This document shows, one piece after another, positions 55,601 to 63,689 of a DNA stretch of 64,000 bases. The notes under the pieces were generated by a model. It was not told where the DNA came from and did not search any database. It worked only from the letters and a program-made list of their open reading frames with translations. The stretch spans positions 3,496,167-3,560,166 of the forward strand of contig OZ244249.1 of NCBI GenBank assembly GCA_965217135.1, written 5' to 3'. The DNA comes from Paracoccaceae bacterium (GTDB taxonomy: Bacteria > Pseudomonadota > Alphaproteobacteria > Rhodobacterales > Rhodobacteraceae). A program made the position numbers and the translations under genes. How positions within the stretch are numbered: position 1 is the stretch's first letter; each line of letters opens with the position of its first letter.

Positions 55601-55785
55601 GTGTTGTTGAATGCATGGCCTACGTGCAACGCGCCTGTCACGTTGGGCGGCGGGATCATAATGCAGAAGCTGCCATCCTCGGCATTTTCCACGTGCTTAC
55701 CCGCCTTGAACGCGCTAGCGTTCTCCCAGGCTTTGTAAATCCTGCCTTCGGCCTCGGCTGCGTTGAACGTCTTTTCCATCGCCAT
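52633..55785 (-). CDS. valS: Valine--tRNA ligase
   Basis: HIGH '[10 protein letters not shown]', KMSKS 'KKMSKTTGN' and a C-terminal coiled coil. Start at '[20 protein letters not shown]' (ATG 55785). Confidence 0.95.
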
Positions 55786-55906
55786 GTCGATGTTCTCCAA
55801 TCTGGATGCGGCACCCTTTACAGAACCATGCAGGCAAGGGAAAGGCCAAGGCGACCCCGCATGTGCCACCTCTTGCCATAGGCCCGGAACCAACGGAAAA
55901 GGGCGG

Positions 55907-56641
55907 ATGGCGATCGATTCAAGAATTCAACCCACGGGCGTTTTTGGGCTGTTCCTTCGCATGGGCGGATGGGGGCTGATCATAACGGCCATTGTGCTTC
56001 TGGTGCTGTATTTTGGAGCGCAGTCAAAATTGACTGTGGCGCAGCGGTTTGAGGCCAATGGCGTTCCAGTGATCGCGACCGTGATTCGCAAATACACGAA
56101 GACCGACCAAAGCGGAGACAATAACAAAACCACCTATTGGGTGTCGTTTCGCTATTCCGTGCAGGGCGGGCAGGCACTGACCACGGACCGGAAGGTAGCA
56201 CGGCAGATTTATTTCAAGACCGAACCCGGTGCGAGTTTTGCGTTGGAGTACCTGCCAGACGACCCCAAGAAATTGCAGGTTACACCGGACGAGCACAGGC
56301 ACACGTCGGAAGCCTTGCAATTGGTGTTCATCTCTGTCGGGACCGTATGGCTGTATCTGCTCTGGTGGATTGGGCGCAAGGCGGCCGCCGGGGAACTGGC
56401 CCGGCGGCATGGCGCCCGGTACGAGACCCAAAGCCTTGGGCTGGCAAAAAGCAAAGTCAGCGTGAACCGGGAAACGCTCTACCAGCTGGTCTGGCGCACG
56501 CCGGAAGATGAAGAGGCCAGAAGCGTGCCACGCAAACGCACCAAGTTTAGCGGTGTGGAGGTTGCTGGAACCCCCATAACTATCTATCGCGGCCGGGGCC
56601 GGGATTGGTGGGCAGGCGATGTGGGCAACCGGTTTGACTGA
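55907..56641 (+). CDS. DUF3592-domain membrane protein
   Basis: An N-terminal TM helix, then a beta-rich segment '[29 protein letters not shown]...[14 protein letters not shown]', then a second TM helix. This is the DUF3592 layout. Confidence 0.6.
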
Positions 56642-56760: not shown

Positions 56761-57387
56761 TCAGCCATTACGCTCTGCCGCCATGGCGGCGTTGGTCAAC
56801 GGTTCCCGTTCCCCCGGCCGGATCACGGCGGGGTCATAGGCCGGGCGGGCAAACACCTCCCGCACCATGGGCGCGAAAAACTCCAGCGGCAGATCATCGT
56901 AATCCGGATCGAAAGACGCCTGATCCCAACGTTCGCAGAACACCACGTTGTCGTCGAAATATGGATGCCCCTGATGGCGGTCTCGCTTGTTCTGATCAAA
57001 GCCTTCCAGATGTTGGCCGTAATAGATCATCTGGAAATCGCCATGCGTCTGCACGACCCAAGCGCATTGTTCGCGCACAAAGGGTTTGAGGATCGTGGCC
57101 GCGTATTCGTCGTGATTGTAGGGCGCGTATATGTCGCCGATATCGTGCAGCAGGGCCGACACAACCCAGTCGGTATCCGCCCCGTCCCGCCAGGCGCGGG
57201 TGGCCGACTGAACTGAATGACCCAGCCGTGTCACCTTGTAGCCTGACAGGCTTTCATCCAGCTCCACCAGCGCGGTCAGCAACCGGCCCGCGGTGCCCTT
57301 GGTATACTCGATCTCATGGGCCGTCAGGAATTCGTATTCTTCCTTCGTGCCATCCTTCATCTGGGTGAATGCCACTCGGTCCATCAT
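56761..57387 (-). CDS. HD-domain protein, PhnZ/TmpB-like (MIOX-type diiron oxygenase candidate)
   Basis: The ligand pattern H...HD...H...H...D is seen as 'RLGHSVQ', 'ALLHDIGD', 'YNHDEY', 'VQTHGDF' and 'ERWDQASFDPDY'. About 205 aa. The start overlaps the stop of the upstream dioxygenase. Confidence 0.6.
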   Translation of the reverse strand: MMDRVAFTQMKDGTKEEYEFLTAHEIEYTKGTAGRLLTALVELDESLSGYKVTRLGHSVQSATRAWRDGADTDWVVSALLHDIGDIYAPYNHDEYAATILKPFVREQCAWVVQTHGDFQMIYYGQHLEGFDQNKRDRHQGHPYFDDNVVFCERWDQASFDPDYDDLPLEFFAPMVREVFARPAYDPAVIRPGEREPLTNAAMAAERNG

Positions 57388-58274
57388 TTAACCTCGTATA
57401 TTCCTGCTGCAGAGCCGCCATCGGCCCCTTTCATCATGATCTGGGCCCGAGATTGCCGGATTTCATCATAAACAGCCAGCGAAGATGGCTCAAAATACCC
57501 CTGCGGCACGGCGACCTGAATAAAATTGCCCAACCGGTCCGCACCACGGGCGATCATTGCATAGTCGCGGTCCCCCACCTGCTGCAGCACGTCGGGACGG
57601 CAGAACCGTATCACGCAGCCGATGCGGCGGTCATCGCTGACATTCGGGCCAGAGCCATGCACCGTCAGCCCGTGATGCAGAGACATCTGGCCCGGCTGCA
57701 ATTCTATGGCGACCTTGTCTTCCTCTGCCACGTCCACCTGCACTTCCTGCCCGCGGCTCAACAGGTTGTCTTTTGCATAGGTATCCACATGCGGCAGGAT
57801 TTCATTCTTGTGCGTGCCGGCCACGAAATCCATACAACCGCTGGCGCGTGTTGCAGGGGACAGGGCGATCCACGCGGTCACCAATCCTTCGGTCGCGCCC
57901 AGCCCCCAATAGGTCAGGTCCTGATGCATGGACACGATATGCTCGGTCGCCGCCTCCTTTGTGAAAAATTCGCCTGCATAGATCAGGATGTCCGGCCCCA
58001 GCACGCCTTCGACCACGTCCAGCACGCGCGGGTTGGTGGCTATCCGGTAGACCAGCGGCATGACCGTGTGCGCGTTGATACGTTTGTAGGTGTTCAGGGG
58101 CAGTGGCAGACCGGCATCCAGCCAGTCTTCTTCCACCTGCTCGAACTCGGCCCGGGCGTCGGCGGCCTCCTCCAATGTCATCACGTCGATGGGGAAGATG
58201 AACCCGTCTTCCCAATATTGTCCGATCTGCGCGGCCGATAGGCGCCCTTCAGTAAGACTTTGCGCGTCCAGCAT
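57384..58274 (-). CDS. Phytanoyl-CoA-dioxygenase (PhyH) family Fe(II)/2-oxoglutarate oxygenase, PhnY*-like
   Basis: HxD facial-triad 'SMHQDLTYW', distal His 'LHHGLTVHGSGPN' and Arg 'DRRIGCVIRF'. 296 aa. Confidence 0.7.
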   Translation of the reverse strand: MLDAQSLTEGRLSAAQIGQYWEDGFIFPIDVMTLEEAADARAEFEQVEEDWLDAGLPLPLNTYKRINAHTVMPLVYRIATNPRVLDVVEGVLGPDILIYAGEFFTKEAATEHIVSMHQDLTYWGLGATEGLVTAWIALSPATRASGCMDFVAGTHKNEILPHVDTYAKDNLLSRGQEVQVDVAEEDKVAIELQPGQMSLHHGLTVHGSGPNVSDDRRIGCVIRFCRPDVLQQVGDRDYAMIARGADRLGNFIQVAVPQGYFEPSSLAVYDEIRQSRAQIMMKGADGGSAAGIYEVK

Positions 58275-58602
58275 GGCTCCTCCTCCATTGGCTGTGGCGA
58301 CGATACTCCATTCCGGACCAAAGCCAATACGGCGTCCCGTGTGGCCAAGGGTGAGTTTTGATCAGCCTGCATTACGTCCACGCGCACCCCATCGTTGATC
58401 CGGCTCCGTATGTTCGAACCCCCGGCGCGCACCGAAAGCTTTGCGCGGGCGGCAACACCCCCGCTCTGGCGATGCGCGGTGCTGGGCGGCGCCGATGTCT
58501 CGATGGGTTTTCGATACCCGGTCAGCTACATTACCGCCTTGTCTACAGGTCGCTGTCCAGCCTCCGCCCGACGGCCCACACGTTTCGTGGTTGGTTACTG
58601 GA

Positions 58603-59052
58603 TCAACTTGGCTGACTCAGACGGTCGATCTTGGTGCTCAGGTGGATCAGGCTTTCGGAGGACCGCACGCCTTTGATCTCTCCGATCCGGTCCAGGGTGC
58701 CGTCCAGTTCCTCGGTCGTGTCGGCAAACAGTTGCACCAGAAGGTCAAACCGCCCCGACGTGGTGTGCACCACCTCCACAGCTGACAATGCCCGCAGCCG
58801 GTCCAATACCTGTGGCCCGGTGCGCGGTTCAAACGTAAGCAAGGCTGTAGCGCGCAACGGCGGACGCAGCGCCGCGCCAGGTTTGAGCGTGTAGCCTGCA
58901 ATCACTCCGCCACGCTCCAACCTTTCAATTCGCGCCTGAACGGTGGTCCGTGCGAGGTTCAACTGCCGTGCCAGATCAGCTACGGAAAACCGCGCGTTTT
59001 CACGCAGCAAGGTCAGCATCTGACGGTCGATTTCGTCAATCTGTAGCTTCAT
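58603..59052 (-). CDS. Lrp/AsnC family transcriptional regulator
   Basis: 'IDRQMLTLLRENARFSVADLARQLNLARTTVQARIERLERGGVIAGYT' plus an RAM-like C-domain. Confidence 0.9.
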   Translation of the reverse strand: MKLQIDEIDRQMLTLLRENARFSVADLARQLNLARTTVQARIERLERGGVIAGYTLKPGAALRPPLRATALLTFEPRTGPQVLDRLRALSAVEVVHTTSGRFDLLVQLFADTTEELDGTLDRIGEIKGVRSSESLIHLSTKIDRLSQPS

Positions 59053-59152
59053 ATTGGCATTTTGCCGAAAATTTCCGGCAAATCAAAAGAAATTACACAT
59101 GATTGTGCAACGCCTACCGCCGATCTTACTTTCAACCAAGTACAGGTGTGCC

Positions 59153-60292
59153 ATGCAATCTCAATCCGTTATCTGGGCTTCGCCCGTCTCCCATCTTGTC
59201 AAATCACAGCCTGACCAGCCCGTGCTATTCCTATCGCCCAGCACGTTGCAGGCCACAGCACAAGCCTTCCAAATCAGGTTTCCCGGTCTGGTCACTTACG
59301 CGGTCAAGGCAAACCCGCACCCCACCGTTCTGGACAATCTGGTCGCCGCCGGTCTTACCGCTTTCGATGTCGCCTCACCCCCTGAAATGCAGGCTGTGCG
59401 CGCCGCCTGCCCAACCGCCGCGCTGCATTACAACAACCCCGTTCGGTCGGAGGCAGAGATTGCCGCAGGTCAAGCCTTCGACGTCACCAGTTGGTCCGTC
59501 GAAGGGGCAGACGAATTGAACAAACTCCGCCACATCGCACGAAACAGCGAAATCGCCGTGCGGTTCAAACTGCCAGTACCCGGCGCAGCCTATGACTTTG
59601 GCGAAAAGTTTGGGGCCACCCCGGAAATCGCCGCAGGATTGCTGCGGGAAGTCGCGGCACGCGGTCACACCCCGGCGCTGACTTTCCACCCTGGCACCCA
59701 ATGTGAAGACGCCCGCGCCTGGGCCATCTATATCGAAGAAGCCGCCCGGATTGCGGACACCGCCGGTGTTCGAATCGCACGGTTGAACGTTGGAGGTGGG
59801 TTTCCAGCGGATCGTGGGCTGGCACCCGTGGATCTGCAGGAGATGTTCGATACCATAGGCGCGGCAAGCCGCCGCGCCTTTGCACGCAACATGCCGGAAC
59901 TGGTCTGCGAACCCGGCCGCGCGATGGTCAGCGATGCATTCACGCTCGCCACGCGGGTCAAGGCGGTGCGGTCGGGTGGTACTGTGTTCCTGAACGACGG
60001 CATCTATGGCGGCCTGTCCGACCTGCGCGACACTGGGTTGAACCTGCGGGTCCGGTTTATATCCGCAGACGGCACTCCCCGCACTGGATTACCGCAGGCA
60101 CGGCCCGTCTTTGGTCCGACCTGCGACAGCCTGGACCGTTTACCGGATGGGCTCGCCCTGCCCGATGATCTGGCCGAAGGTGATTACGTTCTTTTTGATG
60201 GCATGGGTGCTTATTCGCTGAGCCTCAGTACCGGCTTTAACGGTTACGGCATTCACGACATTGAAACGGTCCTGCGGCTCTCTGGACATTGA
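59153..60292 (+). CDS. Type III PLP-dependent decarboxylase (ornithine/lysine decarboxylase-like)
   Basis: PLP-lysine motif 'TYAVKANPHP', 'LNVGGGF' and 'GPTCDSLD'. Start chosen at 'MQSQSVIW' (59153). It is divergent from the Lrp regulator. Confidence 0.8.
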   Translation: MQSQSVIWASPVSHLVKSQPDQPVLFLSPSTLQATAQAFQIRFPGLVTYAVKANPHPTVLDNLVAAGLTAFDVASPPEMQAVRAACPTAALHYNNPVRSEAEIAAGQAFDVTSWSVEGADELNKLRHIARNSEIAVRFKLPVPGAAYDFGEKFGATPEIAAGLLREVAARGHTPALTFHPGTQCEDARAWAIYIEEAARIADTAGVRIARLNVGGGFPADRGLAPVDLQEMFDTIGAASRRAFARNMPELVCEPGRAMVSDAFTLATRVKAVRSGGTVFLNDGIYGGLSDLRDTGLNLRVRFISADGTPRTGLPQARPVFGPTCDSLDRLPDGLALPDDLAEGDYVLFDGMGAYSLSLSTGFNGYGIHDIETVLRLSGH

Positions 60293-60340: not shown

Positions 60341-62638
60341 ATGGACAAGTTCGGGAAAAGCCAACCGGTTACGCGGTTTGAAGACATTCGCCTGCTGACA
60401 GGCCACGGCAATTATATTGACGACAGCACGCCGGAAGGTGCGCTCTACGCTTACGTATTCCGTAGCCAGGTTGCCCACGGCAAGATCGTGGAATTGGATG
60501 TAGAAGACGCACGTGCCGCCGAGGGTGTGCATCTGGTGGTGACCTGCGCGGATCTGCAAGCCAGCGGCATGACCTGTATCATGGATGGTACGGTTGTCGA
60601 CAATCGCGACGGGTCCAAAGGCGCCGCGCCGGAACGTCCGATTCTGGCGCGTGGCAAAGTCCGATTTGTGGGAGAACCCGTGGCAGTGGTCGTTGCAGAG
60701 ACGCTGGAACAGGCCAAGGATGCCGCCGAACTCATCGTGCTGGAAACCGAGGACCTGCCCGCCAAGCTGGATCTGACCACCGGTGGCGAAACGCTGCACG
60801 AAGAAGCGCCCGACAATCAGGCCTTTGACTGGGCCCTGGGCGACGAAGCTGCCTCTGACGCGGCTTTTGCTGCCGCAAACCGCACCGTGAGCGTTAATAT
60901 CGTAGACAACCGCGTGATCGTGAACTCCATGGAGCCGCGCGGCTGTTTTGCAGAATGGGATGGTACCCGTCTGCACCTGTCCTATTCCGGGCAGGGCGTC
61001 TGGGGCCTGAAAGCACAATTGGTCGACAAGTTCGGACTGGCGGCCGAAAACGTGCGGGTCACAACACCCGATGTCGGCGGCGGTTTCGGAATGAAGGCAT
61101 TTCCCTACCCGGAATACTTTGTTGTCTGCCATGCGGCGCGCGCGTTGGGACAACCTGTGCGCTGGACGTCCGACCGTGGCGAAGCAATGATGAGCGACCA
61201 CCACGGGCGTGATCTGGTCACGCTGGCGGAAATGGCTTTTGACGAGACCAACAAGATCACCGCCTACCGCGTCCACAACCGCATGAACATGGGCGCCTAC
61301 AACAGCCATTTCGGCCAGGCGATCCAGACCATGCTGTTTTCCCGGGTCGTGATGGGCGTCTACGATGTCCAGAACGTCTATATGCGGACCGAGGGGTTCT
61401 ATACCAACACGACGCAGGTAGACGCCTATCGCGGGGCAGGACGGCCCGAGGCGATTTTTGTGCTGGAATGCGCCATCGACCGCGCCGCGCGAGAACTGGG
61501 CGTGGACGGCTGGGATCTGCGCCGCCGCAACTTCATTGCACCGGAGAGCTTTCCTTACACCTCTGCCACCGGCGAAACCTATGACGTGGGAGAGTTCGAC
61601 CGCGTGCTGACCCGCGCCGGAGAAGAGGCGGACATCGCGGGCTATGCCGCGCGCAAGGCGTCGGACGCAGCCAAGGGCCTGCTGCGAGGTCAGGGGCTGT
61701 GTTACTACATCGAATCAATCCTGGGCGACCCGTCCGAAGGCGCCAAGGTGGAGTTCAACGAAGACGGCACCGCATCGATCTACGTTGGCACGCAATCCAA
61801 CGGCCAGGGCCACGAAACGGTCTATGTACAGTTCCTGTCGGATCAGACCGGTATCCCGGTCGAAATGATCAGCGTTGTTCAGGGCGATAGCGACCGGATC
61901 GAACAGGGCGGCGGTACGGGAGGGTCCCGGTCGGTGACCAACCAGACCAACGCGACGCTGGCCACCGTGGATAAGATGATCCAGGCCTTCACACCGTATC
62001 TAGCCGAAAAGATGGGGGTCGACGAAAGCGATCTGACCTTCGATGACGAAACCTTCCGCGCTCCGGGCTCGAACCTGACGCCGTCCTTCCTGCAGGCTGC
62101 CGCCATGGCGCGGGCAGATGGCCGGACCGACTTGCTGGTGCATGAAGCCCGCGCGACGCTGCCGGGCCGCAGCTATCCCAATGGCGCGCATGTTGCCGAA
62201 GTGGTGGTGGACCCGGAAACCGGCCAGGCAGTGCTGGACCGCTATACCGTGGTGGATGACTTCGGAAACCTCATCAACCCGATGCTGGCCGAAGGCCAGG
62301 TCCATGGCGGCGTTGTGCAAGGGGTCGGTCAGGCCCTGACCGAACATGTTGGCTACGACGATGAAGGCCAACTGCTCACGGCATCTTTCATGGATTACGC
62401 CTTGCCGCGCGCCGCTGACATCCCAAATATCGGTTTCACGCCTGAACCGGTGCCGTCCACCGCCAACCCGATGGGGATGAAAGGCTGCGGCGAGGCTGGT
62501 ACAGTCGGCGCAATGGCGGCCATGGCAAACGCCGTCACCGATGCATTATGGGATCGCGGCGTGCGTCAGGCTGATATGCCTTACACGCCGCTCCGGATCT
62601 GGGAATTTCTGAAGGATGCCCCTGTCGCGGCTGAGTAA
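60341..62638 (+). CDS. Xanthine-dehydrogenase-family molybdopterin-binding subunit (form-II CoxL-like)
   Basis: 765 aa. 'VDAYRGAGRPEA' matches the AYRGAGR signature of form-II CoxL homologues. An N-terminal a/b-hammerhead-like segment is present. Confidence 0.85.
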   Translation: MDKFGKSQPVTRFEDIRLLTGHGNYIDDSTPEGALYAYVFRSQVAHGKIVELDVEDARAAEGVHLVVTCADLQASGMTCIMDGTVVDNRDGSKGAAPERPILARGKVRFVGEPVAVVVAETLEQAKDAAELIVLETEDLPAKLDLTTGGETLHEEAPDNQAFDWALGDEAASDAAFAAANRTVSVNIVDNRVIVNSMEPRGCFAEWDGTRLHLSYSGQGVWGLKAQLVDKFGLAAENVRVTTPDVGGGFGMKAFPYPEYFVVCHAARALGQPVRWTSDRGEAMMSDHHGRDLVTLAEMAFDETNKITAYRVHNRMNMGAYNSHFGQAIQTMLFSRVVMGVYDVQNVYMRTEGFYTNTTQVDAYRGAGRPEAIFVLECAIDRAARELGVDGWDLRRRNFIAPESFPYTSATGETYDVGEFDRVLTRAGEEADIAGYAARKASDAAKGLLRGQGLCYYIESILGDPSEGAKVEFNEDGTASIYVGTQSNGQGHETVYVQFLSDQTGIPVEMISVVQGDSDRIEQGGGTGGSRSVTNQTNATLATVDKMIQAFTPYLAEKMGVDESDLTFDDETFRAPGSNLTPSFLQAAAMARADGRTDLLVHEARATLPGRSYPNGAHVAEVVVDPETGQAVLDRYTVVDDFGNLINPMLAEGQVHGGVVQGVGQALTEHVGYDDEGQLLTASFMDYALPRAADIPNIGFTPEPVPSTANPMGMKGCGEAGTVGAMAAMANAVTDALWDRGVRQADMPYTPLRIWEFLKDAPVAAE

Positions 62639-63689
62639 CCGGCTTTTTCGATGGCTCGGAGCGCCGTTTAGCTCCGAGCATTCCGCAGAAGCCAAACCAC
62701 GCGGGCCGCAGACCCATGTCATCATCCTGGACGGCACCATGTCGTCCTTGGAACGTGGGCGTGAAACCCATGCCGGGGTGCTGTACAGGCTCTGCACCGA
62801 AATGCGCCCGCAGGTGTCGGTTTTCTACGAAGCAGGCGTTCAGTGGAAAAACTGGCGGGCGACACCTGATGTGCTGATGGGCCGGGGCATCAACCGGCAG
62901 ATCCGCCGGGCCTATGGCTATCTCGCCTCGCGTTACCGTCCAGGGGACCGCATATTCCTGATCGGCTATTCCCGTGGTGCCTATGCGGTGCGGTCGCTGG
63001 CCGGGGTGATCGACCTGGTAGGGCTGCTGCGGGCAGACCACGCAAGCACCCGCAACATTCGCACCGCCTATCGCCACTATCAGCTGTCACCACATACGCC
63101 TGCAGCGCGGGTGTTTCGCGACACCTATTGTCACCCGGACACACCGATTGAGATGGTTGGCGTTTGGGATACGGTCAAGGCGCTGGGGCTGCGTCTGCCC
63201 TTGCTTTGGACCATCGCCGAGGCGCGCCATGCATTCCACAATCACCGACTGGGCCGAACCATCCGGAACGGGTATCACGCGCTGGCCCTGCATGAAACGC
63301 GCGCAGTATATTCCCCGGTGATGTGGGAAGACCGGGATGATTTCCCCGGCCATGTCGAACAAGTCTGGTTTCGTGGCACCCATGGCGATGTGGGCGGGCA
63401 ACTCAGCGGGTTCGAGGCGGCAAAGCCGTTGGCAAACTTTTCGCTGGTCTGGATGCTGGAGAAAGCCGCACACCATAACATGCCCTTGCCCGACAACTGG
63501 CGCGCGCGGTTTTTCACCGACATCAAAGCTCCATCAACCGGAACGTGGCGCGGCTGGGCAAAGATCTTCGTCATCCGGCATCACCGGTCGGTGGGCCGCT
63601 ATATGTCTGAAAGTCTGCATCCCTCCGCGCAGAACGAACACGCAGGTCTTTCCGGCACCCTGCCGGTGGCAAACTTGAACAGCAGTTAG
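62616..63689 (+). CDS. DUF2235 (Tle1-like alpha/beta hydrolase) domain protein
   Basis: 'THVIILDGTMSS...GDRIFLIGYSRGAYAVRSLAGVI...WDTVKALG...FRGTHGDVGG' are the DUF2235 blocks, including the GxSxG nucleophile elbow. The start overlaps the CoxL-like gene by 23 nt. Confidence 0.75.
   Translation: MPLSRLSNRLFRWLGAPFSSEHSAEAKPRGPQTHVIILDGTMSSLERGRETHAGVLYRLCTEMRPQVSVFYEAGVQWKNWRATPDVLMGRGINRQIRRAYGYLASRYRPGDRIFLIGYSRGAYAVRSLAGVIDLVGLLRADHASTRNIRTAYRHYQLSPHTPAARVFRDTYCHPDTPIEMVGVWDTVKALGLRLPLLWTIAEARHAFHNHRLGRTIRNGYHALALHETRAVYSPVMWEDRDDFPGHVEQVWFRGTHGDVGGQLSGFEAAKPLANFSLVWMLEKAAHHNMPLPDNWRARFFTDIKAPSTGTWRGWAKIFVIRHHRSVGRYMSESLHPSAQNEHAGLSGTLPVANLNSS

What the first reader, a model, noticed from the sequence alone, without database searches (positions are those of the whole stretch)
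56761..58274. Translationally coupled PhyH-family 2OG dioxygenase and HD-domain protein: candidate PhnY*/PhnZ- or TmpA/TmpB-type oxidative C-P bond cleavage pair
Seen in the sequence:
- A 296-aa Fe(II)/2OG oxygenase (HxD 'HQD', distal His, Arg) overlaps by 4 nt a 208-aa HD-domain protein.
- The HD-domain protein has the H...HD...H...H...D ligand series characteristic of MIOX-type mixed-valent diiron oxygenases.

Established knowledge:
- PhnY* hydroxylates 2-aminoethylphosphonate and PhnZ (HD-domain) then cleaves the C-P bond (McSorley et al. 2012).
- An analogous TmpA/TmpB pair acting on trimethyl-AEP was described from the roseobacter Leisingera caerulea (Rajakovich et al. 2019).
- Both HD partners were long misannotated as phosphohydrolases.

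No phosphonate transporter or aminotransferase is adjacent here, so the substrate may differ from the known ones.
Basis: partly seen in the sequence, partly recalled or inferred. Interest (0 to 1): 0.62.

Follow-up and report, generated by a model that had tools for sequence, protein, structure and literature searches.

The report
Hydroxylase plus PhnZ-like diiron oxygenase pair
Two overlapping genes encode an iron/2-oxoglutarate hydroxylase and an iron oxygenase that resemble the known phosphonate-splitting pairs, but the oxygenase belongs to a separate, very widespread and uncharacterised family that has lost the phosphonate-binding residues and probably splits a different, betaine- or carnitine-like compound.

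Summary
A 296-aa PhyH-family Fe(II)/2OG oxygenase (57384..58274, minus strand) overlaps by ATGA a 208-aa HD protein (56761..57387, minus strand) that carries all six diiron ligands.

The HD protein has a PhnZ/TmpB-like fold (TM 0.6-0.7, about 21% identity). It scores 28-32 bits against curated cut-offs of 214-300, and a long, fully supported branch separates it from that family. Every PhnZ/TmpB-invariant residue outside the metal ligands is replaced or deleted. These are the YxxE loop, the His of HDIGH, K108, R109, R158, K165 and the S126-Q133GG loop.

The same genome has a true TmpA/TmpB pair elsewhere. I found no Pho box, phosphonate transporter or aminotransferase nearby.

The HD family is large: 1,039 clusters at E<=1e-10, and 73 of 301 sampled genomes of the class. 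Its close relatives sit next to different partners:
- PhyH, BBOX/TmpA-like or GbcA-like Rieske hydroxylases;
- BADH-like dehydrogenases;
- carnitine dehydrogenase plus BKACE.

In marine algae it is fused to BBOX-like or fatty-acid-hydroxylase domains.

The most likely function is a hydroxylate-then-oxidatively-cleave cascade on a non-phosphonate substrate, possibly a quaternary-ammonium compound. The substrate is unknown. This scan has flagged the same HD family before on other DNA.

The parts
57384..58274 (-). PhyH-family Fe(II)/2-oxoglutarate hydroxylase, 296 aa. Facial triad H117, D119, H206; 2OG-binding R217.
   Evidence: ORF. Pfam PF05721 at 93.8 bits. Best solved relative is ThoJ (6zyk/6zyl): E 7.5e-35 by sequence, TM 0.79-0.91 and 27-29% identity by fold. 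AF2 model pLDDT 83.9. Orthologs 41-80% identical are paired with the HD gene in other genomes.
56761..57387 (-). HD-domain protein, 208 aa, a putative diiron oxygenase of an uncharacterised PhnZ-like family. Ligands H57, H81, D82, H92, H115, D155.
   Evidence: ORF. Pfam HD at 22.3 bits and MIOX at 22.6 bits. NCBIfam Phn-HD 32.4, TmpB 28.3 and PhnZ1 24.4 bits, all far below their cut-offs. AF2 model pLDDT 96.9. Foldseek finds only PhnZ and TmpB as significant matches. Ligand columns are conserved.
57384..57387 (-). ATGA overlap: the HD start codon overlaps the PhyH stop codon (translational coupling).
   Evidence: Sequence read. The same -4 overlap occurs in 25 related loci and a -1 overlap in 14.
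58275..58292 (-). Shine-Dalgarno-like run GGAGGAGGAG directly upstream of the PhyH start.
   Evidence: Read from the sequence (reverse complement of 58275-58292).
58293..58602 (-). Upstream intergenic region where the operon promoter should lie. No promoter or Pho box was recognised.
   Evidence: No sigma-70-like site in this region. No Pho-box-like match: 5 hits in the whole window against 4.2 expected by chance, none of them here. Only short, chance-level repeats.

Best explanation
The two genes form one translationally coupled operon that encodes a two-step oxygenase cascade.

Step 1 (inferred from family and residues): the PhyH-type enzyme uses Fe(II), 2-oxoglutarate and O2 to hydroxylate a C-H bond of a small polar metabolite.

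Step 2 (inferred from fold, ligands and analogy): the HD protein binds a diiron cofactor through H57, H81/D82, H92, H115 and D155. It coordinates the new hydroxyl group. Like PhnZ, TmpB and MIOX, it uses O2 for a four-electron oxidation that breaks the bond next to the hydroxylated carbon and leaves a carboxylate.

The substrate is most likely not a phosphonate. The contexts of close relatives suggest a quaternary-ammonium, betaine- or carnitine-like compound, so the bond cleaved would be C-C. One example is a beta-hydroxy-trimethylammonium acid giving glycine betaine. The identity of the substrate is not shown.
For: Catalytic equipment is complete in both proteins.

The HD model matches only the oxygenases PhnZ and TmpB. 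HD hydrolases score E>1 and MIOX scores E 0.18.

Several results support coupling of the two genes:
- the ATGA overlap;
- a conserved orthologous pair in at least 5 alphaproteobacterial families;
- adjacency in about 64 of 81 Rhodobacteraceae loci, with a divergent GcvA-like LysR regulator in 35 of them.

The HD family generically partners with hydroxylases:
- fusions with BBOX/TmpA-like TauD domains in diatoms, a pelagophyte and an amoebozoan, and with a fatty-acid-hydroxylase domain in Mantoniella;
- adjacent TauD-type genes scoring 334-348 bits on the TmpA model, below its cut-off of 400;
- a GbcA-like Rieske oxygenase next to a 75%-identical ortholog.

Evidence against a phosphonate substrate:
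- PhnZ-family invariants Y25, E28, H63, K108, R109, R158 and K165 become L47, Y50, D85, Q119, M120, C151 and F159, and the S126..Q133-G-G loop is deleted;
- true TmpAB is present in the same genome;
- 32 of the 73 genomes with this HD family also carry a PhnZ/TmpB-family gene (my hand comparison of the genome lists), which argues against redundancy;
- no Pho box and no transporter.

Evidence for a quaternary-amine link: a 67% ortholog lies between BKACE and carnitine 3-dehydrogenase, and the same arrangement occurs in a 29%-GC genome. BADH-like dehydrogenases are adjacent in 3 loci.
Against: No biochemical data exist for any member of this HD family in the literature I could search.

The six-ligand motif also occurs in dinuclear HD hydrolases (PMC8177086), so oxygenase chemistry is an inference.

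The gene contexts that suggest quaternary amines come from relatives whose partner is not PhyH. This window itself offers no pathway context: its neighbours are valS, an Lrp regulator, a decarboxylase and a CoxL-like gene.

18 of 30 diverse family members have no recognisable partner, and some genomes carry the PhyH ortholog without an adjacent HD gene. The coupling is therefore not obligatory.

The family has its own conserved arginine (R64, 70-85% conserved). I could not locate it relative to the pocket because no model coordinates were available, so an anionic group bound in a different way is not excluded.

Confidence: 0.55

Rival explanations
1. The pair is a true oxidative C-P cleavage system for a phosphonate other than 2-AEP, TMAEP or methylphosphonate, and the HD protein binds the phosphonate in a different way from PhnZ.
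For: The architecture is identical to PhnY* (a PhyH-family protein, PMC3909097) plus PhnZ. The closest folds are PhnZ and TmpB. TauD partners of relatives score highest on the TmpA model, at 334-348 bits. The family has its own conserved arginine, R64. The marine host lives where phosphonates are abundant.
Against: All seven substitutable PhnZ/TmpB-invariant residues outside the ligands are replaced, and the S126-Q133GG loop is deleted. There is no Pho box, phosphonate transporter or other phn gene in the window or in 80 related loci. TmpAB is already present in this genome, and both HD families co-occur in 32 genomes (my hand comparison of the lists; TmpAB). Contexts of relatives are carnitine and betaine genes, not phn genes.
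Confidence: 0.15
2. The two enzymes do not act in sequence. The HD oxygenase works alone on a metabolite that is already hydroxylated, such as carnitine or choline taken up from seawater, and the PhyH enzyme serves another step or another substrate of the same regulon.
For: 18 of 30 family members have no adjacent hydroxylase. Orthologs sit with carnitine dehydrogenase and BKACE without any hydroxylase. Partners switch between close HD relatives. Some genomes keep the PhyH ortholog without an adjacent HD gene, and one has no HD gene at all.
Against: The ATGA overlap, and conservation of the orthologous PhyH-HD pair across five families, argue for functional coupling. Repeated fusion of the HD domain to hydroxylase domains in eukaryotes points the same way.
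Confidence: 0.15
3. The HD protein is a dinuclear metal-dependent hydrolase (a phosphohydrolase or similar), as its database names say, and its adjacency to PhyH has no oxygenase logic.
For: Source names include 'predicted HD phosphohydrolase' and 'peptidase'. The H..HD..H..H..D motif also occurs in dinuclear HD phosphatases such as YqeK (PMC8177086).
Against: No HD hydrolase structure matches the model significantly: RelH, PgpH and GppA all score E>1, whereas PhnZ scores 4e-6. Profile-profile probability to PhnZ/TmpB is 99.8%. Pfam's weak second hit is MIOX, another oxygenase. The family is repeatedly fused or coupled to O2-dependent hydroxylases. PhnZ and TmpB carried the same misleading names before they were characterised.
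Confidence: 0.08

Closest known systems
PhnY*/PhnZ (2-aminoethylphosphonate to glycine plus phosphate; PDB 4MLM, 4MLN, 4N6W)
   Same: It is a PhyH-family 2OG hydroxylase gene next to an HD-domain gene. The six diiron ligands are aligned. PhnZ is the best structural match of the HD model (TM 0.58-0.70). The presumed two-step logic is the same: hydroxylate, then carry out a four-electron oxidative cleavage.
   Different: Identity is about 21%, and the Phn-HD model gives 32 bits against a cut-off of 214.6. The YxxE loop is absent (Tyr ligand to L47, amine-binding Glu to Y50). The His of HDIGH is D85. K108, R109, R158 and K165 are replaced, and a 12-residue loop carrying S126 and Q133 is deleted. 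There is no phosphorus-related context.
TmpA/TmpB of Leisingera caerulea (TMAEP to glycine betaine plus phosphate; PDB 6NPA)
   Same: It occurs in roseobacter-type hosts as a translationally coupled hydroxylase-HD pair. TmpB is the second-best structural match (TM 0.56-0.63). Relatives of this HD family pair with TmpA/BBOX-like dioxygenases.
   Different: The hydroxylase here is PhyH-type, not TauD/BBOX-type. The TmpB model gives 28 bits against a cut-off of 300. This genome has a genuine TmpA (554 bits, cut-off 400) and TmpB (319 bits, cut-off 300) at another locus.
SmaO/SmaX (peptidyl Asp to beta-hydroxy-Asp to aminomalonate; PMC12186529)
   Same: It is a 2OG hydroxylase followed by an HD-domain oxygenase that cleaves a C-C bond rather than a C-P bond. 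This sets a precedent for non-phosphonate substrates.
   Different: SmaX binds a single Fe through two His and one Asn, and it acts on a RiPP peptide. The protein here keeps all six diiron ligands, and there is no peptide or RiPP context.
myo-Inositol oxygenase MIOX (PF05153)
   Same: It is an HD-domain mixed-valent diiron oxygenase that cleaves C-C without a partner hydroxylase. There is a weak Pfam match to residues 16-98 (22.6 bits). Like this family, it lacks the YxxE loop.
   Different: The score is below Pfam's cut-off of 25. The structural match is not significant (E 0.18, TM 0.43). MIOX is larger, with a 249-position model.
ThoJ (thioholgamide non-heme hydroxylase; PDB 6ZYK, 6ZYL)
   Same: It is the closest solved relative of the PhyH protein (E 7.5e-35; TM 0.79-0.91). 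The HxD...H triad is the same.
   Different: Identity is only 27-29%. ThoJ modifies a RiPP peptide in an actinomycete gene cluster, and nothing comparable is present here.

Membership tests
PhnZ / Phn-HD (TIGR03276) and TmpB (NF049941) | Score at or above the curated HMM cut-off | tested here: not met
   32.4 bits against 214.6 for Phn-HD, 28.3 against 300 for TmpB, and 24.4 against 300 for PhnZ1. Only residues about 44-96 match. The genome's other HD gene scores 319 on the TmpB model.
PhnZ / Phn-HD (TIGR03276) and TmpB (NF049941) | Six diiron ligands H..HD..H..H..D | tested here: met
   H57, H81, D82, H92, H115 and D155 align with H35, H59, D60, H81, H104 and D161 of the family. They are at least 90% conserved.
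PhnZ / Phn-HD (TIGR03276) and TmpB (NF049941) | YxxE loop (Tyr as Fe2 ligand, Glu binding the substrate amine; PMC8177086) | tested here: not met
   Y25 maps to L47 and E28 maps to Y50. Both residues are 96-100% conserved in 30 PhnZ/TmpB-family sequences.
PhnZ / Phn-HD (TIGR03276) and TmpB (NF049941) | His after the HD dyad (HDIGH; H62 contacts the substrate hydroxyl, PMC7916636) | tested here: not met
   The motif here is HDIGD, with D85.
PhnZ / Phn-HD (TIGR03276) and TmpB (NF049941) | Family-invariant cationic and polar residues K108, R109, S126, Q133-G-G, R158 and K165. That they bind the phosphonate is my recollection of the crystal-structure papers; their invariance was computed here. | tested here: not met
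   They map to Q119, M120, a deleted loop, C151 and F159.
PhnZ / Phn-HD (TIGR03276) and TmpB (NF049941) | Phylogenetic placement inside the family | tested here: not met
   A 100/100 branch of length greater than 3 separates the two families. Long-branch caveats apply to the rooting, but not to the separation itself.
PhnZ / Phn-HD (TIGR03276) and TmpB (NF049941) | Oxidative C-P cleavage activity with phosphate release | not testable with these tools
   This needs enzyme assays.
PhnY* (2-AEP dioxygenase) | PhyH-superfamily (pfam05721) 2OG oxygenase encoded next to the HD gene | tested here: met
   PF05721 at 93.8 bits. PhnY* is stated to be a pfam05721 protein in PMC3909097.
PhnY* (2-AEP dioxygenase) | Orthology to characterised PhnY* | not tested
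   No PhnY* sequence, model or structure was available in the tools. NCBIfam lists only the chlorinating enzyme, PtlH and EctD models, all far below their cut-offs.
TmpA (NF049936) / BBOX | TauD-fold enzyme with a GBBH-like N-terminal domain | tested here: not met
   There is no TauD or GBBH match; the protein is PhyH-fold.
Ectoine hydroxylase EctD (TIGR02408) | Score at or above the curated HMM cut-off | tested here: not met
   25.7 bits against a cut-off of 336.5.
MIOX (PF05153) | Pfam gathering score and fold match | tested here: not met
   22.6 bits against 25. Foldseek E 0.18.
[quoted passage not shown] | Stable Fe(II)/Fe(III) cofactor and O2-dependent four-electron cleavage | not testable with these tools
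   Only the ligand set and the fold are consistent with this. EPR or Mossbauer spectroscopy and assays are needed.
PhyH family (PF05721) | HxD...H facial triad, 2OG-binding Arg, and gathering score | tested here: met
   H117, D119, H206 and R217 align with human PHYH and ThoJ. The score is 93.8 bits against 22.

The most novel reading that the evidence does not exclude
This HD family is a new, very widespread class of diiron oxygenases that cleave a C-C bond, or oxidise an alcohol to an acid, in hydroxylated quaternary-ammonium osmolytes. An example would be a carnitine-like beta-hydroxy-trimethylammonium acid converted to glycine betaine. The first-step hydroxylases would be interchangeable and non-homologous (PhyH, BBOX-like, Rieske, membrane fatty-acid-hydroxylase type). 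The family is present in roseobacters, SAR11-like small genomes and, as fusions, in diatoms and green algae. It is currently counted as phnZ in ocean phosphonate surveys.
Probability: 0.3. Interest if true: 0.8.

Novelty: new variant of a known kind. Interest (0 to 1): 0.62.

Why it matters
Only MIOX, PhnZ (with PhnZ1 and PhoF), TmpB and the atypical SmaX are characterised HD-domain oxygenases. This gene belongs to a much larger sister family with 1,039 clusters at E<=1e-10. The family occurs in 73 of 301 sampled alphaproteobacterial genomes, against 53 for PhnZ/TmpB-like genes. Its chemistry is unknown.

If it cleaves C-C bonds in betaine- or carnitine-type osmolytes, it would add a new route in marine carbon and nitrogen cycling. 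It would also be a clear case of non-orthologous replacement of the first enzyme of a cascade.

There is a practical consequence too. At least one global survey built its phnZ reference set from COG4341 and TIGR00277 (PMC9381506 supplement). COG4341 ('predicted HD phosphohydrolase') is the label JGI gives to members of this family. Estimates of marine phnZ abundance, including the reported dominance of Pelagibacterales, may therefore include this non-PhnZ family.

Tried and rejected
1. A recurrent PuuD-like membrane neighbour seemed present in 10 loci. It was an artefact of stop-to-stop ORFs overlapping the HD gene in another frame, and is real in one locus only.

2. I searched for a Pho box in the upstream region with the consensus CTGTCAT-N4-CTGTCAT and up to 3 mismatches. 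There was nothing in 58275-58602, and window-wide hits were at chance level.

3. The promoter and terminator scan was uninformative.

4. I tested whether the fungal PhoF enzyme carries this HD type. Fused relatives retrieved with a BBOX-HD fusion were algal or protist, with none fungal.

5. I tried to read the PhnZ and TmpB structure papers for their phosphonate-binding residues. They were not held. I replaced this with a data-driven list of invariants from 30 family sequences.

6. I looked for PhnY*-type partners next to true Phn-HD genes in the phylum sample. Their neighbours were aldehyde dehydrogenase, DAO-type FAD oxidoreductases and LysR regulators, not 2OG oxygenases.

8. Transferring function from ThoJ to the PhyH protein was rejected. 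Identity is 27-29% and the context is a RiPP cluster.

9. The conserved synteny with valS, DUF2235, CoxL and Lrp/decarboxylase genes was judged to be lineage synteny, not pathway context.
Full report
OBSERVATION

One is a 296-aa protein at 57384..58274 and the other a 208-aa protein at 56761..57387. The start ATG of the second overlaps the TGA stop of the first, giving ATGA. Both starts are preceded by Shine-Dalgarno-like runs.

The first protein is a PhyH-family Fe(II)/2OG oxygenase, matching PF05721 at 93.8 bits against a cut-off of 22. H117-Q-D119, H206 and R217 align with the iron and 2OG residues of human phytanoyl-CoA hydroxylase and of ThoJ.

The second protein is an HD-domain protein. 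It gives marginal Pfam matches to HD (22.3 bits) and MIOX (22.6 bits). The series H57, H81-D82, H92, H115, D155 is conserved in at least 90% of 40 diverse homologs.

IS IT PhnZ OR TmpB?

It is not. The curated NCBIfam models give 32.4 bits for Phn-HD (cut-off 214.6), 28.3 for TmpB (cut-off 300) and 24.4 for PhnZ1 (cut-off 300). They match only the stretch around the HD dyad. A sequence search of the PDB finds PhnZ and TmpB at E 1e-4 to 6e-3 over about 50 residues.

The same genome is a single 4.71-Mb contig. About 78 kb away in genome coordinates (the TmpB gene lies about 72 kb beyond the window's end) it holds a 382-aa TauD/BBOX-type gene overlapping a 193-aa HD gene. These pass the equivalog cut-offs for TmpA (554 bits against 400) and TmpB (319 bits against 300). 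The genome therefore already has the known pathway, and the gene in the finding is something else.

An AlphaFold model built on 40 homologs is very confident, with pLDDT 96.9. Foldseek against the PDB returns only PhnZ and TmpB as significant matches: E 4e-6 to 7e-5, TM 0.56-0.70, 20-22% identity. MIOX scores E 0.18, and HD hydrolases such as RelH, PgpH and GppA score E>1. The fold is PhnZ-like, but the relationship is distant.

I then extracted 30 PhnZ/TmpB-family sequences from a phylum-wide genome sample, listed their invariant residues, and aligned the two families profile to profile (probability 99.8%, 21% identity). All six metal ligands align. Every other family-invariant polar or charged residue does not:

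| PhnZ/TmpB family | This family |
|---|---|
| Y25 (YxxE loop) | L47 |
| E28 (YxxE loop) | Y50 |
| H63 (HDIGH) | D85 |
| K108 | Q119 |
| R109 | M120 |
| loop S123..G135, including S126 and Q133-G-G | deleted |
| R158 | C151 |
| K165 | F159 |

Published work assigns the Tyr and Glu to Fe2 capping and amine binding, and the His to the substrate hydroxyl (PMC8177086; PMC7916636). That the Lys, Arg, Ser and Gln residues bind the phosphonate is my recollection of the structure papers, which I could not open. Their invariance was computed here.

A maximum-likelihood tree puts the two families on either side of a 100/100 branch. There is no Pho-box-like site in 58275-58602. No transporter, aminotransferase or phn gene is conserved near the pair in 80 related loci.

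WHAT IS THE FAMILY?

It is large. A search of the 1.84-billion-protein representative library gave 2,020 clusters at E<=1e-3 and 1,039 at E<=1e-10. A word-indexed search returned more than 7,800 proteins, and roseobacter orthologs are 79-100% identical. Source names are 'HD domain-containing protein', 'inositol oxygenase family protein', 'predicted HD phosphohydrolase' and 'peptidase'.

In an even sample of 301 genomes of the class, 73 have the family, including genomes of 1.4-2 Mb. 53 have a PhnZ/TmpB-like gene at E<=1e-30, and 21 of those score above the cut-off. 32 genomes have both families (my hand comparison of the genome lists). This argues that the two families are not redundant. I found no characterised member in the searchable literature.

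PARTNERS

The PhyH gene is adjacent in 6 of the 30 best class-level loci. These loci come from five families. Their PhyH proteins are 41-65% identical to this one, whereas this genome's six other PhyH paralogs are only 21-28% identical. This is therefore a conserved orthologous pair.

Among 81 Rhodobacteraceae loci found with the PhyH profile, about 64 have the HD gene directly downstream. The overlap is -4 in 25 loci and -1 in 14. In 35 loci a divergent LysR regulator lies upstream. Its best models are GcvA and the choline-sulfate regulator.

Other members of the HD family have other neighbours:
- TauD-type dioxygenases that score 334-348 bits on the TmpA model, below its cut-off of 400 (2 loci).
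- BADH-like aldehyde dehydrogenases (3 loci).
- BKACE plus carnitine dehydrogenase (1 locus, in a 29%-GC genome).
- No recognisable partner (18 loci).

I also searched five genomes where the PhyH ortholog lacks an adjacent HD gene.
- In Roseovarius conchicola, a 75%-identical HD ortholog lies elsewhere, overlapping a GbcA-like Rieske oxygenase. There the PhyH ortholog is followed by a membrane fatty-acid-hydroxylase-family gene.
- In a second genome, a 67% ortholog lies between BKACE and carnitine 3-dehydrogenase.
- A third genome has a 61% ortholog with no recognisable partner.
- A fourth has only a 43% paralog.
- The fifth has no HD gene of this family.

On the tree these differently partnered HD genes fall inside one tight clade (100/99) together with the PhyH-paired ones. 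Elsewhere a PhyH-paired HD is sister to a TauD-paired one (100/99).

The HD domain is also fused to the C-terminus of other proteins. It follows BBOX/TmpA-like dioxygenases in Nitzschia, other Bacillariaceae, Chrysophaeum and Dracoamoeba, and in several MMETSP transcriptomes. It follows a fatty-acid-hydroxylase domain in Mantoniella.

The recurring theme is a hydroxylase followed by this HD domain. The recurring chemistry around it is trimethylammonium compounds.

THE PhyH PROTEIN

Its closest solved relative is ThoJ, the hydroxylase of the thioholgamide RiPP pathway (PDB 6zyk, 6zyl). By sequence the match is E 7.5e-35, and by fold TM 0.79-0.91 with 27-29% identity. Next come SyrB2, CytC3, SnoN/SnoK, proline hydroxylase H11 and GriE. 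None is close enough to transfer a substrate. It is not an ectoine hydroxylase (25.7 bits against a cut-off of 336.5). PhnY* is itself a pfam05721 protein (PMC3909097), so the architecture does mirror PhnY*/PhnZ. Orthology to PhnY* could not be tested.

MOST LIKELY MECHANISM

The operon encodes a hydroxylate-then-cleave cascade. The 2OG enzyme installs a hydroxyl group. The diiron HD enzyme binds that hydroxyl and uses O2 for a four-electron oxidative cleavage of the neighbouring bond, leaving a carboxylate. PhnZ, TmpB and MIOX work this way, and SmaX does the same for a C-C bond.

Shown here: gene structure, catalytic residues, fold, family separation, loss of PhnZ-specific residues, partner patterns. 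Inferred: oxygenase rather than hydrolase chemistry, sequential action of the two enzymes, and the non-phosphonate nature of the substrate. Speculative: that the substrate is a quaternary-ammonium acid. Carnitine, for example, is the exact carboxymethyl analogue of hydroxy-TMAEP and would give glycine betaine.

I put 0.55 on the cascade with a non-phosphonate substrate. Within that, I put roughly 0.3 overall on a quaternary-ammonium substrate.

CAVEATS

- The six-ligand motif also occurs in dinuclear HD hydrolases.
- The window itself gives no pathway context.
- The family has its own conserved arginine (R64, 70-85% conserved), whose position relative to the pocket I could not examine.
- Many family members lack a partner.
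- No expression data could be obtained.

RELATION TO EARLIER NOTES OF THIS SCAN

The same HD family was flagged before on other DNA: with a BBOX-like partner in SAR11, with a BBOX-like partner under a LysR regulator, with a Rieske partner, and with PhyH in another genome. I re-derived three of their points independently. These are the loss of phosphonate-family residues, the carnitine and betaine contexts, and the COG4341 basis of a published phnZ survey.

VERDICT

The feature is real and conserved. It is a new variant of the known cascades that pair a hydroxylase with an HD oxygenase. It is not a member of PhnZ/TmpB, and the substrate is unknown.

Noticed in passing
outside the window: G000:C1:3630975-3632701 (L001:332-2058, + strand): A genuine TmpA/TmpB pair lies here: a 382-aa TauD/BBOX-type gene overlapping a 193-aa HD gene by 4 nt. 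Both pass the NCBIfam equivalog cut-offs (554 bits against 400, and 319 against 300). A mandelate-racemase/enolase-like ORF lies downstream.
   Followed up: partly
window 58603-60292: An Lrp/AsnC-type regulator (58603..59052, minus strand) is divergent from a PLP-dependent Orn/DAP/Arg-decarboxylase-family gene (59054..60292, plus strand). The decarboxylase scores 115 bits on the LysA model, far below its cut-off. This pair is syntenic with the PhyH-HD pair in about 20 related loci. Its substrate is unknown.
   Followed up: partly
window 60341-63689: A CoxL/xanthine-dehydrogenase-family ORF (765 aa; a syntenic 933-aa ORF in L033 carries the molybdopterin-binding Pfam domains) has no adjacent small or medium subunit ORFs in the listing. 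It is followed, with an overlap, by a 357-aa ORF at 62616..63689 whose family I did not check by HMM (it resembles DUF2235 hydrolases by eye). Both are conserved upstream of the pair in many Rhodobacteraceae.
   Followed up: no
L057:9938-11894 and L162:1432-3254 (Roseovarius conchicola): In this genome the PhyH ortholog (69% identity) overlaps a membrane fatty-acid-hydroxylase-family gene instead of the HD gene. The HD ortholog (75% identity) overlaps a GbcA-like Rieske oxygenase at another locus. The partners have been swapped.
   Followed up: partly
L134, L135, L140, L141 (beta- and gammaproteobacterial genomes): HD genes that score above the Phn-HD cut-off are flanked by aldehyde dehydrogenase and DAO-type FAD oxidoreductase genes rather than by a 2OG dioxygenase. 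This suggests further variants of the first step in true PhnZ pathways.
   Followed up: no
P0281/P0393 (Mantoniella antarctica); P0405 (Chrysophaeum taylorii); P0415 (Nitzschia inconspicua): Eukaryotic algae encode this HD domain fused to a fatty-acid-hydroxylase domain or to a BBOX-like dioxygenase. One of these fusions is named 'metal dependent phosphohydrolase' in its source.
   Followed up: partly
window 55763-56641: A membrane protein with a DUF3592 match (23.6 bits, just under the cut-off) lies between valS and the HD gene. Its long N-terminal extension overlaps the valS start region, so the true start is probably further downstream.
   Followed up: no
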